A stretch of 64,000 nucleotides of DNA from Magallana gigas (Eukaryota). Of the stretch, positions 21,001-33,000 are shown in pieces. How positions within the stretch are numbered: position 1 is the stretch's first letter; every line of letters begins with the position of its first letter. The stretch is from positions 6,200,001-6,264,000 of the forward strand of contig NC_088858.1 in NCBI RefSeq assembly GCF_963853765.1, in the 5' to 3' direction. A program made the position numbers.

Positions 21001-24000
21001 CATTTGTGTTTTCTAAGAAAGCTTCTATACATGAATGAATTAAAAAAAAATAATAAACACAATACCCATATGTTTTGTTTATTGATTTACATTATTTTTC
21101 ACTTGCTTGATAATGAAAAGATATAAATTAGCAATTCAGACTTTAAGAAACAAATCCATAAGAATAAGAGAAATTAATTCTAAATTTCAAGCACATCATA
21201 TCTTACAAATCACCAGGCATAATATATTGACTTACCTTGGTACAGGGTGTTTCATAATACCAGGCATATTATACAGAGCAGTATAATCTACCGACTTATC
21301 TTGGTACAGGGTATTCCATAAAATATGTTGCACTTTGATTTCATTGTAGTTTTCTCATTTATGCTGAATATACTGGTGCTAATCTCAATTGAATTACCAA
21401 ATCTTATTGTTTTGCTTATACAACGTATTATGAAACACCATGTGCATTCAATTTACACTCGCAGCACAGAGTTACACAGACTTGCACTCATCAATATACC
21501 GTATTTACACTGTACTGCACTCAGAAAAAGGACTAATCAGACCCTCACTCACCACCATTAACAATAACGACTTTCACTCATCAACATAGACTTTCATTCA
21601 TCAACAATACCAATATACAACGAACAGACTTGTATGTTTACAAGCAGACTCAAGCAGGCTTTCTCTTATCTCAAAAGACTAGACATTCCTTTTCCTCACA
21701 TCCAGAAATTAACTGATGTCAAAATCATATAAATTAGTTTTAGTCTGTGTAGAATAAACTTGAATAACGAAAGAAAATTTGCAAAGTAATTCTACAAAAT
21801 TACACACATTTAAAAAAAAATCAGTTTTGTTTGAGAATATGGCACCACAATAAATGAAACAGAGTACAGAAAAACAAAAGCACTTGCTATGTACCAGTAA
21901 TTAAATTAGGATGAGAAAAAGATCAGTTACTAGTATAAAAATATTTACATGTTCATTAAAACTCTCCAATTTTTTGTATGTGTACATCTGTTACTACCGG
22001 GTAAATAGCAAAACCCAAGGATGTCCATATAATTTTAATTGTTGGGTGGCAAATTTATAGGTGTTTGAAACAACAACATAAATGCTTTATAAAAATGATA
22101 ACCTCACCTTTTTTCATTGCAAGTTTAATTTAGTATAATAGACTAACCATTATGCATAATGCCTTAAACTACACACATGTAAAAGTATTTTCAACTTCCT
22201 TTGCACCAGCATTATACCAATTTTCTAACACTTTACTTAGCATTTGTTTTCTCTTTGAATAAAAGCAACATACTAATAACTTTTATAAATACATGTACAT
22301 GTACCAGTATTAACAAGATTGTATGAGAAAAAGTTAGGACCAAGAGGGATAAACCAAAAAAAATCCCATCTAAACGAAAAGAAGAAAAACTCGGAATGCA
22401 ACCAAGGAAAGACAACCCACACATATCTGATTGACTTTGGATTTAGAAGGCTTGAGGCACTGTTTATCCACACCAGGCACTAGCACGCTGTTAGCTGGCA
22501 GTGTCCGATGTCTGTTTAGCACTCTGTTCTTGATCAAACTTTTGTAATCTCCGTCGTCGGATTTCGTGCATCTCATCCTCGTGTTCTTCTTTGGCGGGAT
22601 CCTCCCAATCTGGTATCACTTCCTCTTTTGGGGGTGTGAACCCTGTTGCTCCTTCTAAACCCTCATAATCTGCAGAAAAATACAGAGAACCCTTTAAAAC
22701 AATTCTTCTACCTGTTATATAGATATAGATACTGTTATATTTAATTAAGAAGAACTGACCGAGGTCTGAGTTGGAGGGTTCTGTCTTTATTTCTGTTTTT
22801 ACTTCAGTACTCTCACTTTTTGGCACTGCCTCCTCCCTATTGTTTGAGGAGACATTTGGATTTATTGTTGGTGTGCTGAAAAAATACAATGATTCATAAC
22901 TGTATACAGGGTTATTTTCACCATGTATTTTTCCACCCTCTACACTTGGAAATTGCTTCAACCCATCCTTGTTTGTCCAGTCACAGTTGCCTGGTAAGTT
23001 ATCTTTCTTATCAACAGTAATCTAAAAATTGTTTTGATTTTACCCAGTCTTAAATTCGCCCTCTGACATCAATTGCGAAAGGGATGAAAATAAAACAGAT
23101 GCAAATATTTCCAGTGTACAGTATTGTATAAGATTCCTTAATTCTGCAATTTAACTATTTTGCATCAAATCACATGAATATAAAATTGCGAATGCCAAAT
23201 TTTTATCTTAGTTTCTTTTACATGTACTTTACATCTGTCCAAGAAAAAAAAAGTGTATGCAATTTGGTTTCATATGAATATTTGAATATAATTACACAAA
23301 TACAAAATGACATGATCGATTTTTCATTTATTTCCAAGATTAGTGAAAAAGTAAATGTAATTGCTTATAAATCAAACAAATGTTAATGTGTCCAAATATA
23401 TCTTATTGTGATAGTTTAAAAATATATTGCGATACAAAATTTTTTGGCAATACCAATCCCTAAACTGTTCTTTATTCTGCAACTACCCATTGCATTGACT
23501 GAATAGGGGTAACCCAATAAAAGCTATATTCGGTCAATGCCCCAATATAGCCTCGTTCACGGCGCCATGGTTTCAACTAAAGATATGCAATGAAATTTGT
23601 CAAAAATAGCTTGTTTGAGGAAAAATCTGTGATATTATGTTGCAGGATGAACAAATACTTGTTAACCATCTTGAAATATAAGCAATATTTGGGTTCGGGT
23701 CAAAATCATGATGACGGCTCTGCAAACCTCACCCTCTGTCACATGTTCTTACCCTCACCAAAATAAAGCTTATATTTCCAGATAGTAACCATGTATTTTA
23801 CTTATACATGAGCTGTACTTCTGTTGTATTATACCCAAGCTGTTGTGCTTCCGTTGTAATACACCTTAGCTGTGCTTCTGTTGTATTATACCTGAGCTGT
23901 GCTTCTGTTGTATTATACCTGAGTTGTACCTCTGTTGTATTATACCTGAGCTGTGCTTTTTTTGCATTATACTGAGCTATGCCTCTGTTGTATTATACCT

Positions 24001-30000: not shown

Positions 30001-33000
30001 AACATCATCTTCTGCAAACAAAATACGAAAATGCTTTTAATATTTTTTTAATGTTCGCAATTTTCGTAATTTTAGTGTGTTATGTGGTTTTTTTTAATTT
30101 ATTTTTTTGGCCCGGAAGGGGGGGGGGGGGTTGTAAGAGGACGGGGTTTGGGGTCGGGAAAATTAAAAAGTATTTAAAGCGCATACAAAAAGTTGGCTGT
30201 AATGATCATCAACATGCTCACCCAATAGTCTGAAATAAGCGCGCATCTCTGTCCTTTTAACTGCAAAATGATGCCGGGTGGAAACATGGTGTTCGGAGTA
30301 AAACCCTGTTCCAGTGAATTTACAGATGGGAATCCTTTCTTCGATAAGTGCCAGACGTGGTCTCTTCACTCGATGTGGTTCATTGGAATCTTCAAATTCA
30401 TCCATGTGACAAAAATTATCAACTAAGCTTAGAAAATCTTGGTGCATGTCGCGGTCTTTGACAACCTGAACCTTGCAGCTGTCATTTGCATCTCGATCCG
30501 TCAAAGAAGTTGTTTTGGTTTTGGTAGTTTCTTCCTTTGCAATCGTCGCCTTTTTCGTAATCTTCAAGGGAAACATAAGTAACATACAAACTAGCTAATC
30601 ACAAAATTTCTTCTCAACTTACATCCAACAGCTGTTTGGGGAATCCCGTGTCGTCTGCTTTTTTGGTCGGTTCTTTCGGAAAAAGTTCCGAATGTTCGAA
30701 TCATGACGTCACTTTAGGCAAAAGAGAAAGTACAAGTTGCAACATGTTTCGAACATGTTCCGCCAGGTCAGTATGTTCTTTTTTTAGTTTTTGGTTTTTT
30801 GAAATTTACGATTCCCCAATTAATGATGAAACTTAACGTTTGGATATTTCAAACTTATTTTTTGGAATTCTATGAACGCATTAATTAATGATATTCCGGA
30901 TATTATTTAATTTGGTTCTAAAATTAGAATTAAACTAATGTAAACAAAATTATGAAAATAGACCGATTTACCATTTTATGATTATCGGCTTAAACAACGG
31001 AGTTATCTTATGATCTTTAAAATGTAAAATCTTTAAAATAGTATGCTTATTATATATATATTTCACTGACAACGCAAGTAACCGATTTATGGGTCTTTTG
31101 ACAATGCATATTTCGAAATGATACCATGGAATCATGGCAAAAGATTACCTACGATCCCGGGTAGGTGTAAAGGACAGATTGTTATATTGTGTTACACGCT
31201 ACTTTTCTACAGTGTAACATGTGTTGATGTGGAACCACAAAAAGAAATCTATGTGCCAAATTACAATGTTTACCACAATTTAACCCGCATTGGCAAAGAA
31301 GTCGAATACCTTTTAAAATTCCCAAATTATGTCAAAGTGTATACCCATCATAAATCCCGACAGAATAGACAACAGTATCTGCTGCACATCTCAAACTTCA
31401 CAAAACACAGTGAAAAGTTTGACAACTTGGTTGAAAAGCCTCGAATACTTTTTTCCTTCGGTGAGCATGCAAGAGAATTTCTTCCAGTTGAGAGTGCAAT
31501 TTATTTCATAAGGAACATGACAGGTGGCCTTTTACCAGATGTAGATGGCTTTTCAAGACAGTATACTCAACAAATCCTTTCCCTAGTAGATTTATACATT
31601 ATACTAATGGCTAATCCAGATGGCCGTCACCATGTTGAAAAGACAAAGAATTACTGCTGGCGGGGAACTAGTACTGGAGTCGATCTTGATAGAAACTTTG
31701 GATGGGAGTTTGGTGGAAAAGGAAGCTCAAGTGATACTGAGGATGAGGAGTACAGAGGGAAAGATCCATTTTCAGGCAAGTTGCTAAAAGGAGACATAAA
31801 TTACACATCATCATCCTGTCTGTGTTTTGAAGACACAACGAATAATTATTTAAGAGAACTATTTCTTTTTCCAGAGCCAGAGAGTTTAGTTTTCCAGGAA
31901 ATCACATCTGATGTCTCATTTGATGCTTTTTTCTCCTTCCATTCAGGAATCAATCATATTTACATTCCATATTCAGGTAAAATGGGTATTAACTTATTAA
32001 GTTATGGAAAGTAGCTAGAAGAAAGGAAAACATGACTGATTGATATACCGGTGCATGTAAATCATGCAAAATTTTGTTGTTGGTATGAACTGCATTACCT
32101 ATAATTTTGCAGATACAAAATCCAGACAGCTCAAGAGAGTGCCAGATAACATCCAGGAGATGTTGAGATTAGCGGCTCAGTTGTCTCGCTGTACAAAGTA
32201 CAAGTACAGATTCGGAACTTCACACCAGCTCATCAACTACACAGCTGATGGCACCATATTTGACTACATGGCAGGGATTCAAAAAGTAAGGCGTAATTTT
32301 TCTTTAAAAAAGGATTTGTGATTTCTACAGGTGCATCAAAGTCTTGATAAAATCTTTTTTTTCATATTTCAGATACTCTTTTCTTTTACTGTGGAGTTGT
32401 GGGGTAAACAACATCAGGGAATGAGTTGTTTTGATTTATTCAACCCTAAAAGTGATGAGTTACAGGTAAAGGTTTTTAATTTGATTATTCAAGTACATTC
32501 AAAATAATGTGTTAAAGTAAGTAATTGTGTTTTAATTCAACGCAGTATTTTTTCCCATGATTTTTCTCAGCATTTGATAGGAAAGTTGTACTTTAAATTA
32601 TACACTAGTACATGTACCAGTAAATCAATTTTGAATTTTTTCTTTATTCAGAAAGTAGTCAGCAATTTGCATCCCCTCTACATCAACATAATACGATATC
32701 TCTCGGAATGGAAATCCAGAAACATTGCAAAAATGACCAATCCATATGTAAGTAAATGACTCACTGTCTCTTTTAATCACTTTATAAAAAACAGGATAGC
32801 AAGACACTTTGCTTTAATATAAATCTGCTCTAATTATTTTATTTTCTCATATGATAAATTTTAAAAATTTGCTGAATTGTTAGATCTGTTTTGACAAAAG
32901 TACCTTTTTTAAACGCCAAAAAAAAATGATAATAACATTTATGAAGAAAATGAAAAGAGGAAGGAATGGGCAAAAACTTTTAAACTTTATGAAATTTTGA

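What the first reader, a model, noticed from the sequence alone, without database searches (positions are those of the whole stretch)
22491..30447. Speedy directly 5' of SYVN1: possible deeply conserved microsynteny with human SYVN1-SPDYC
Speedy ends about 470 nt upstream of the HRD1 ATG. From memory, human 11q13.1 has the order FAU-MRPL49-SYVN1-SPDYC-CAPN1, also with a Speedy gene on the 5' side of SYVN1 (divergent there, tandem here). If general, this functionally unrelated pair has stayed linked since the bilaterian ancestor. That would suggest shared regulatory sequence and would bear on which vertebrate Speedy locus is ancestral.
Basis: partly seen in the sequence, partly recalled or inferred. 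Interest (0 to 1): 0.68.

Follow-up and report, generated by a model that had tools for sequence, protein, structure and literature searches.

The report
Oyster Speedy–HRD1 neighbour pair, partly ancient
In this oyster sequence a cell-cycle gene (Speedy) sits directly in front of an unrelated protein-quality-control gene (HRD1/SYVN1), and the same two genes are also neighbours in a worm, a freshwater mussel, birds and mammals but not in many other molluscs, so it looks like an old neighbourhood that survives patchily and not like a tightly protected unit.

Summary
On the minus strand, a complete six-exon Speedy/RINGO gene (30585-28726) ends 468 nt before the ATG of a complete HRD1/SYVN1 gene (28257-22491). 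The window is from a Crassostrea-type oyster, not human.

- Papers confirm SPDYC among the nearest neighbours of SYVN1 in human and sheep.
- Using record lengths, locus tags and accession order as stand-ins for gene order, Speedy and HRD1 are consecutive genes in the annelid Owenia fusiformis and the unionid mussel Sinanodonta woodiana.
- SPDYC and SYVN1 share one record in 3 of 3 birds. Two of these are small contigs of 287 kb and 714 kb.
- The pair is not general. Of 13 other lophotrochozoan species with both genes seen, 2 are adjacent, 3 share a chromosome but are numbered far apart, 1 shares a chromosome unchecked, 5 are on different scaffolds and 2 are uninformative.
- Teleost SPDYA and SYVN1 are on different chromosomes in 6 of 6 species.
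- Amphioxus, echinoderms, hemichordates and cnidarians could not be paired.
- The Speedy tree does not resolve whether the A or the C locus is ancestral.

Best reading: an inherited adjacency, certainly annelid-mollusc and probably bilaterian, kept passively and often broken. A regulatory link is untested. This is a new example of a known phenomenon.

The parts
28726..30585 (-). Speedy/RINGO gene, coding part. Six exons: 30585-30222, 30011-29953, 29772-29687, 29581-29410, 29244-28983, 28781-28726. Stop TGA at 28728-28726.
   Evidence: Pfam Spy1 on single exons. P0254 residues 1-332 map here. 999 nt, all introns GT-AG. About 99% identical to the C. gigas/angulata protein on exon 1 and 86 of 88 on exon 5.
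29410..30011 (-). Speedy box (Spy1 domain), spread over exons 2-4 and continuing into exon 5.
   Evidence: Profile positions 8-30, 31-58 and 60-116 are matched by separate exons. The database orthologue P0254 covers profile 2-131 of 131 at 195 bits.
28258..28725 (-). Spacer of 468 nt between the Speedy stop and the HRD1 ATG. It must hold the Speedy 3' UTR and poly(A) site and, unless there is an upstream non-coding exon, the HRD1 promoter and 5' UTR. ATTAAA at 28564-28559 and 28450-28445.
   Evidence: length, GC 0.34, motif positions. Sequence read. The functional roles are inferred.
22491..28257 (-). HRD1/SYVN1 (synoviolin) gene, coding part, from ATG 28257-28255 to stop TAA 22493-22491.
   Evidence: P0123 residues 1-601 map here. 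Pfam TPR_SYVN1_N and RING on single exons. Sequence read.
28129..28257 (-). HRD1 coding exon 1 (43 codons).
   Evidence: Pfam TPR_SYVN1_N profile 2-43, E 1.7e-10. GT donor read.
25095..25345 (-). HRD1 RING-H2 exon.
   Evidence: zf-RING_2 E 2e-12, zf-rbx1 E 2e-9. Boundaries read.
24228..24405 (-). HRD1 exon for the conserved C-terminal helix region. It was used as the query for the mollusc HRD1 survey.
   Evidence: 32 hits, all but a few short or atypical entries annotated as synoviolin. 100% identity to C. virginica P0122 and to P0123 on this exon.
22491..22669 (-). HRD1 last coding exon with its stop codon.

Best explanation
Two intact and functionally unrelated genes lie head-to-tail: a Speedy/RINGO CDK activator and, 468 nt downstream, the ER-associated-degradation ubiquitin ligase HRD1/SYVN1. 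The adjacency is inherited. It goes back at least to the common ancestor of annelids and molluscs. It probably goes back to the bilaterian ancestor, where it survives in tetrapods as SPDYC-SYVN1. It is best seen as passively retained linkage. The two genes stay on one chromosome in lophotrochozoans. Where the spacer is tiny, as here, few breakpoints can separate them without damage, but the pair has still been split many times. In vertebrates the SPDYC locus kept SYVN1 as its neighbour and the SPDYA locus did not.

Shown: the gene structures, the 468-nt spacing, and the consecutive numbering in Owenia and Sinanodonta.
Shown by proxy (identical record lengths): co-location on one record in birds, and the same chromosome in six lophotrochozoans.
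Inferred: the bilaterian age and the passive mode of retention.
For: - Gene models and spacing.
- Consecutive genes in Owenia (CAH1791821/CAH1791822, both on a 39,264,044-bp record) and in Sinanodonta (locus tags 036104/036105, KAL3872932/KAL3872933, 156,443,777-bp record).
- Same chromosome-length record in 6 of 6 lophotrochozoans where both genes lie on records of 33 Mb or more (Saccostrea echinata, Pinctada imbricata, Sinanodonta, Mactra antiquata, Liolophura sinensis, Owenia).
- Birds: 3 of 3 on the same record (Mycteria 287,345; Calonectris 714,396; Ciconia boyciana 15,575,500).
- Human and sheep neighbour lists.
- With order scrambled inside a chromosome of roughly a thousand genes, chance adjacency is about 0.1-0.3% per lineage (my estimate). 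Three lophotrochozoan lineages plus amniotes are therefore far better explained by descent.
- For passive retention: the pair is split or not seen together in most other species (next field).
Against: Counts are out of 13 other lophotrochozoan species with both genes seen.
- Only 2 are adjacent.
- Three share a chromosome, but their numbers are far apart: Pinctada KAK3093709 vs KAK3093274; Mactra KAL4237457 vs KAL4239005; Liolophura XP_064602880 vs XP_064600380.
- Five are on different scaffolds or contigs: Mizuhopecten 1,184,563 vs 863,358; Potamilus 737,410 vs 1,029,693; Ruditapes 458,024 vs 426,522; Bulinus 12,575,501 vs 11,783,320; Nucella 2,838,873 vs 1,100,264.
- One (Saccostrea echinata) shares a chromosome but its numbering was not examined.
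- Two are uninformative: Pecten maximus (Speedy seen only on a 6-kb record) and the fragmented Saccostrea cucullata.
- Potamilus is a unionid like Sinanodonta and yet shows different contigs.
- No deuterostome invertebrate and no non-bilaterian was paired, so the bilaterian age rests on two ends of the tree.
- Accession order is a proxy for gene order. It was checked only against Sinanodonta locus tags. RefSeq XP order is weaker.
- A second Speedy paralogue could hide among the 196 of 316 hits that were not listed.
Confidence: 0.55

Rival explanations
1. The pair is a constrained regulatory unit. HRD1's promoter or enhancers overlap the Speedy 3' end or introns, or the reverse, or the two genes share germline or oocyte regulation. 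Selection then keeps them together, as in bystander-gene microsynteny blocks.
For: - The spacer is only 468 nt. Candidate poly(A) signals lie 161 and 275 nt after the Speedy stop, which leaves about 190-300 nt before the HRD1 ATG. HRD1's core promoter must therefore abut or overlap the Speedy 3' end, unless an upstream non-coding exon exists.
- The adjacency recurs in very distant lineages.
Against: - The pair is broken or not seen together in most molluscs examined.
- No conserved non-coding sequence or expression data could be examined here.
- No fused or read-through Speedy-HRD1 protein models appear among the listed hits: 120 of 316, 32 of 32, 120 of 1870.
Confidence: 0.2
2. The tetrapod SPDYC-SYVN1 adjacency and the annelid-mollusc adjacency arose independently. 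The genes lay on the same ancestral linkage group. In vertebrates they became neighbours secondarily, for example through loss of intervening genes after the two genome duplications, or through a local move of SPDYC.
For: - No intermediate deuterostome lineage could be checked.
- Teleost SPDYA and SYVN1 are on different chromosomes in 6 of 6 species (Enoplosus, Halichoeres, Dicentrarchus, Chelmon, Onychostoma, Pungitius).
- A preprint concludes that subfamily A arose first and C and E later (bioRxiv 10.1101/354886, section read).
- If the recalled human orientation is right, it differs from the oyster orientation.
Against: - Chance adjacency of one specified pair is of the order of 0.1-1%, even within a shared linkage group (my estimate).
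- The link is at least amniote-old (birds and mammals).
- In the tree the C clade includes coelacanth and lungfish genes (98/95 support), so SPDYC is not a late tetrapod invention.
Confidence: 0.22
3. The adjacency in the window is an assembly or annotation artefact.
For: The window contains one N run (14616-14753), which shows that the assembly has gaps.
Against: - The N run is 7.7 kb away from the pair.
- The whole 8.1-kb stretch is continuous sequence, with both genes complete and all Speedy introns canonical.
- Independent assemblies of an annelid and a unionid number the two genes consecutively.
Confidence: 0.03

Closest known systems
Human and sheep SYVN1-SPDYC neighbourhood (human 11q13.1)
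   Same: A Speedy-family gene is the nearest or a near neighbour of SYVN1. PMC12164210 names SPDYC among the five nearest neighbours of SYVN1, and PMC11276604 lists SYVN1, SPDYC, CAPN1 in one 80-kb sheep window (passages read).
   Different: - The oyster genes are in tandem, 468 nt apart.
- None of the other window genes (bHLH, M14 carboxypeptidase, raftlin-like, GPCR) is the same kind of gene as those named in the neighbour lists I read: FAU, MRPL49, ZNHIT2 and CAPN1, or PPP1CB and FOSL2 in cattle. Their human orthologues were not looked up.
- Only the pair itself is therefore seen to be shared.
Ancient conserved microsyntenic gene pairs of metazoans (genome-wide surveys such as Irimia et al. 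2012 and Simakov et al. 2013; recalled, not seen here)
   Same: An unrelated gene pair is adjacent in distant phyla.
   Different: - Those surveys attribute many pairs to regulatory elements of a developmental gene lying inside a bystander gene. Here neither gene is a classical developmental regulator, and the pair is often broken.
- I could not check whether this pair is in their supplementary lists, because supplements are closed.
Vertebrate Speedy subfamilies A and C
   Same: The oyster protein has a full Speedy box. Its exon 4 is 72-81% identical both to proteins named speedy protein C (tetrapods, lungfish) and to those named speedy protein A (teleosts).
   Different: - The tree gives a teleost A clade (100/100) and a sarcopterygian C clade (98/95, including Xenopus 'speedy 1-A'). 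The backbone is unresolved and the oyster gene sits inside a bivalve group, so it cannot be assigned to A or C.
- My A rows were all teleosts and my C rows all sarcopterygians. The tree alone therefore cannot show that these are paralogues rather than orthologues with different names.

Membership tests
Speedy/RINGO (Pfam Spy1, PF11357) | Complete Speedy box (about 130 residues) above the family cut-off. | tested here: met
   Window exons match profile 8-30, 31-58 and 60-116. The latter two score 36.9 and 77.3 bits against a cut-off of 25. The near-identical database orthologue P0254 covers profile 2-131 of 131 at 195 bits.
Speedy/RINGO (Pfam Spy1, PF11357) | Binds and activates CDK1/CDK2 without cyclin homology. 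| not testable with these tools
   No binding prediction was run, because a textbook pair would add nothing about the synteny question.
HRD1/synoviolin E3 ligases | N-terminal multi-pass synoviolin domain (PF25563) followed by a RING-H2 finger. | tested here: met
   Exons hit PF25563 at profile 2-43, 44-73, 73-126 and 170-230, and the RING exon hits zf-RING_2 at 47.6 bits. P0123, which maps over the whole gene, covers PF25563 positions 2-268 of 268 at 384 bits.
HRD1/synoviolin E3 ligases | Ubiquitin-ligase activity in ER-associated degradation. | not testable with these tools
   Inferred from family membership only.
Bilaterian-conserved microsyntenic pair | Adjacent in at least two protostome phyla. 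| tested here: met
   Mollusca: this window and Sinanodonta. Annelida: Owenia. Shown by consecutive locus tags and accessions. This is proxy evidence, not read from DNA.
Bilaterian-conserved microsyntenic pair | Adjacent in deuterostomes. | tested here: inconclusive
   Mammals from paper passages. Birds share a record in 3 of 3 species, but adjacency itself was not shown, since XP numbers are 34 and 41 apart. Teleost SPDYA is unlinked in 6 of 6. No amphioxus, hemichordate, echinoderm or tunicate pair was obtained.
Bilaterian-conserved microsyntenic pair | Retained in most sampled lineages (evidence of constraint). | tested here: not met
   Of 13 other lophotrochozoan species, 2 are adjacent. 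The others are 3 on the same chromosome but far apart, 5 on different scaffolds, 1 unchecked and 2 uninformative.
Bilaterian-conserved microsyntenic pair | Conserved non-coding or regulatory sequence shared by the pair. | not testable with these tools
   No eukaryotic genome DNA other than the window was available.
Orthologue of vertebrate SPDYC rather than SPDYA | Groups with the C clade in a supported tree. | tested here: inconclusive
   38 rows and 301 columns, IQ-TREE. The backbone is an open polytomy.

The most novel reading that the evidence does not exclude
Speedy-HRD1 is a selectively maintained two-gene unit more than 550 million years old. HRD1's promoter is embedded in the Speedy 3' end, or the two share germline control. 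The unit marks the SPDYC locus, whose clade includes the founding Xenopus Speedy/RINGO, as the positional descendant of the ancestral Speedy gene. On this reading SPDYA is the duplicate that lost its SYVN1 partner after the vertebrate genome duplications. This would contradict the printed view that subfamily A is the original.
Probability: 0.18. Interest if true: 0.6.

Novelty: new member of a known kind. Interest (0 to 1): 0.38.

Why it matters
Conserved neighbour pairs of unrelated genes are used to infer ancestral genome order and hidden regulatory coupling.

- This pair gives a positional marker for the small Speedy/RINGO family, whose sequence trees are poorly resolved. The SPDYC locus, not the SPDYA locus, keeps the invertebrate neighbour.
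- The only evolutionary account I could read (bioRxiv 10.1101/354886) treats subfamily A as the oldest. The synteny suggests that A and C should instead be tested as sister copies of one ancestral locus.
- The patchy retention is a caution. An adjacency shared by oyster and human need not be constrained.
- For HRD1 biology or oyster biology the finding has little consequence.

Tried and rejected
- Fused Speedy-HRD1 protein models, as a sign of tandem adjacency elsewhere. None was seen: no listed hit combines PF11357 with PF25563 or a RING domain. In the representative search the longest of the 150 listed hits is 630 aa. I did not follow up the long unnamed representatives.
- Extended synteny. 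Pfam on the other large ORFs of the window gave a bHLH, an M14 carboxypeptidase, a raftlin-like protein, a rhodopsin-type GPCR and a 2031-aa ORF without a family. None is the same kind of gene as the human, sheep or cattle neighbours named in the passages I read. Their human orthologues were not looked up.
- Locus tags in Pinctada (FSP39_019113 vs FSP39_013536) disagree with accession spacing (435), so at least one numbering there is not positional. Neither suggests adjacency.
- Phylogeny to assign the oyster gene to A or C: unresolved. An earlier FastTree with unnamed representatives was used only to choose ten proteins for the last name look-up.
- Literature:
  - 'Speedy RINGO synteny' found 0 papers.
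  - 'SYVN1 microsynteny' found 0.
  - 'speedy protein + synoviolin' found 0.
  - 'SPDYC + synten' found 2, of which I read passages from one and saw the other only in the search listing; neither treats this pair's synteny as far as I saw.
  - 'SPDYC + SYVN1' found 4, and the three I opened contain only gene lists.
- The Chauhan et al. 2012 paper on Speedy evolution is not held. What I say of it is recalled.
- Support for a 2p23/11q13 duplication block. A cattle window lists SPDYA, PPP1CB, FOSL2 (PMC10581918). Searches for papers listing FOSL1, PPP1CA and EHD1 with SYVN1 or CAPN1 found none. That PPP1CA, FOSL1, EHD1 and CAPN1 lie at human 11q13, and EHD3 and CAPN13/14 at 2p23, is my recall only.

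
Full report
**What is in the window**

Both genes lie on the minus strand.

Speedy:
- Stop-to-stop ORFs between 28.8 and 30.6 kb carry pieces of the Speedy box. Searched one exon at a time, they hit Pfam Spy1 at profile positions 8-30 (29914-30036), 31-58 (29689-29772) and 60-116 (29410-29580).
- The database protein P0254 ('speedy protein 1-B', Crassostrea gigas/angulata, 332 aa) aligns to window exon 1 with one mismatch in its first 122 residues, and to exon 5 with 86 of 88 identities.
- All 332 residues of P0254 map between 30585 and 28729.
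- The six coding exons are 30585-30222, 30011-29953, 29772-29687, 29581-29410, 29244-28983 and 28781-28726. They total 999 nt and all five introns are GT-AG.

HRD1:
- The gene starts at ATG 28257 and ends at TAA 22493-22491.
- Its exons hit TPR_SYVN1_N and RING-H2 models.
- All 601 residues of P0123 map to it.

- From the Speedy stop codon to the HRD1 ATG is 468 nt.
The orthologue's start is at 30585.

Rules on joining, species and gaps:
Where a full-length sequence was needed I used database proteins returned by the searches.
- The window is from a Crassostrea-type oyster, not human.
- No human sequence was fetched or compared.
- The N run at 14616-14753 was left alone.

**The spacer**

The 468 nt have GC 0.34. 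They contain two ATTAAA motifs, 161 and 275 nt after the Speedy stop. If either is the Speedy poly(A) signal, the HRD1 promoter and 5' UTR have only about 190-300 nt, unless HRD1 has an upstream non-coding exon. This is inference. No transcript data were available.

**Human and other mammals**

- A passage of PMC12164210 names ZNHIT2, FAU, MRPL49, SPDYC and CAPN1 as the five nearest neighbours of SYVN1.
- A sheep table lists SYVN1, SPDYC, CAPN1 in one 80-kb window (PMC11276604).
- A sheep CNV region lists the wider neighbourhood, including EHD1 (PMC10298528).

**Survey of other animals**

No eukaryotic genome DNA could be fetched, so I used three proxies from the protein searches:
- the length of the record carrying each protein, where identical lengths are taken to mean the same record;
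- locus tags;
- GenBank/ENA accession order.

The sources were these:
- Speedy exon 4, searched against longer proteins, gave 316 hits with 120 listed.
- An HRD1 exon gave 32 hits.
- The C. virginica HRD1 protein P0122 gave 1870 hits with 120 listed.
- Names and accessions came from three look-ups.

Adjacent:
- Sinanodonta woodiana: Speedy is ACJMK2_036104 / KAL3872932 and HRD1 is ACJMK2_036105 / KAL3872933, on one 156,443,777-bp record.
- Owenia fusiformis: Speedy is CAH1791821 and HRD1 is CAH1791822, on one 39,264,044-bp record.

Same chromosome-length record, but numbers far apart:
- Pinctada imbricata (435 apart).
- Mactra antiquata (1,548 apart).
- Liolophura sinensis (about 2,500 apart, and RefSeq numbering is a weaker proxy).

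Same chromosome, numbering not examined:
- Saccostrea echinata (33,264,178 bp for both).

Different scaffolds or contigs:
- Mizuhopecten yessoensis, Potamilus streckersoni, Ruditapes philippinarum, Bulinus truncatus, Nucella lapillus.

Uninformative:
- Pecten maximus (Speedy seen only on a 6-kb record).
- Saccostrea cucullata (fragmented).

That makes 13 species besides the window, of which 2 are adjacent.

Vertebrates:
- SPDYC and SYVN1 share a record in 3 of 3 birds (Mycteria americana 287,345 bp, Calonectris borealis 714,396 bp, Ciconia boyciana 15,575,500 bp).
- Teleost SPDYA and SYVN1 lie on records of different length in 6 of 6 species.

Not paired:
- Speedy proteins were found for Asterias, Antedon, Saccoglossus, Styela, Capitella, a coral and a sponge.
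- HRD1 was found for Branchiostoma, Ptychodera, Apostichopus, Lingula and Lineus.
- Ambulacrarians, amphioxus, tunicates and non-bilaterians therefore remain unchecked.

**Is it more than chance?**

If order within a chromosome of roughly a thousand genes were random, a specified pair would be adjacent in about 0.1-0.3% of lineages (my estimate). Adjacency in an oyster, a unionid and an annelid is therefore inherited from their common ancestor. The same pair being nearest neighbours in mammals, and on one small contig in birds, is also much more probable under descent than under chance. With no intermediate deuterostome, though, I put bilaterian ancestry at roughly 0.7-0.75, not higher. Loss of intervening genes after the vertebrate genome duplications could have turned 'near' into 'adjacent'.

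**Constraint or passive retention?**

The pair is split, or not seen together, in most molluscs sampled, while the two genes still share a chromosome in 6 of 6 lophotrochozoans where both lie on records of 33 Mb or more. That is the pattern of conserved chromosome membership with local scrambling, and of weak or no selection on the adjacency itself. The very short spacer in the oyster may itself protect the pair, because few breakpoints fit. The same spacer is also the only hint of regulatory entanglement. I found no fused or read-through models among the listed hits.

**Which vertebrate Speedy locus is ancestral?**

- A tree of 38 named proteins (301 columns, IQ-TREE, rooted on coral and sponge) gives a teleost 'A' clade (100/100) and a sarcopterygian 'C' clade (98/95). 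The C clade contains coelacanth, lungfish, reptile, bird and amphibian genes, including Xenopus 'speedy 1-A'. The backbone is unresolved, and the oyster gene sits within a bivalve group.
- My A rows were only teleosts and my C rows only sarcopterygians, so the tree alone cannot separate paralogy from naming.
- Linkage does separate them. C-type genes go with SYVN1 and teleost A-type genes do not.
- The one evolutionary account I could read states that subfamily A arose first and C and E later (bioRxiv 10.1101/354886, section 10).
- The synteny fits better with A and C being sister copies of one ancestral Speedy-HRD1 locus, with SYVN1 kept only on the C side.
- Part of the support is recall. 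SPDYA lies with PPP1CB and FOSL2 in cattle (PMC10581918). I recall paralogues of these (PPP1CA, FOSL1) near SPDYC at 11q13, but two searches found no paper to confirm this.

**Novelty**

Full-text searches found no paper that treats this pair's synteny. Supplementary pair lists of the genome-wide microsynteny surveys could contain it, but supplements are closed and those papers are cited from memory only. The phenomenon itself, ancient microsyntenic pairs, is well known, so this is a new member of a known kind.

**Verdict**

- Observation: confirmed.
- Interpretation: partly supported. The adjacency is old and probably bilaterian, but it is patchy, not shown to be regulatory, and does not by itself decide the A-versus-C question.
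- Interest: moderate to low.

Noticed in passing
window 23802-24159: A 27-bp tandem repeat of 13.2 copies (86% matches) fills much of the HRD1 intron after the exon at 24405-24228. It creates long spurious ORFs on both strands.
   Followed up: partly
window 30585-31118: An M14 zinc-carboxypeptidase gene lies head-to-head with Speedy (Pfam Peptidase_M14, E 6e-29, ORF 31082-32011 on the plus strand). Its first in-frame ATG, at about 31118, is some 530 nt from the Speedy ATG. This suggests a shared bidirectional promoter region.
   Followed up: no
window 14616-14753: An N run of 138 bases (assembly gap or masked stretch). It was left as it is.
   Followed up: no
window 53612-59704 (minus strand): A single open frame of 2031 codons, serine- and acid-rich, with no Pfam family at E 0.01 or better. 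It coincides with raised GC (0.44-0.46) and strong AT skew.
   Followed up: no
window 36011-37573 (plus strand): Two ORFs of a raftlin-like gene that starts MGSGGSKK. The second ORF hits Pfam Raftlin at E 1.9e-10. A bHLH gene at 1537-2250 (minus) and a rhodopsin-type GPCR at 40629-41849 (minus) complete the window's recognisable genes.
   Followed up: partly
related proteins P0028, P0014, P0021: Xenopus laevis 'speedy protein 1-A' groups inside the anuran part of the SPDYC clade (100/98). From recall, this is the original Speedy/RINGO. If so, the best-studied family member is a C-type gene and not an A-type gene.
   Followed up: partly
related proteins P0121 and P0130 (Haliotis rubra), P0124 (Saccostrea cucullata): Haliotis rubra has two synoviolin-like models on the same 1,348,674-bp scaffold. 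One, of 708 aa, scores 166 bits against a 58-aa exon, as if the exon were present twice. A 268-aa Saccostrea protein with a PF05485 domain carries the HRD1 exon at 98% identity, which is probably a chimeric model.
   Followed up: no
Speedy C-termini of P0254, P0155, P0012: The short last exon encodes a motif shared by oyster, unionid and annelid Speedy proteins (S-x-F-D-M-K/Q then L-x-x-x-L). It lies outside the Speedy box and I know of no annotation for it.
   Followed up: no
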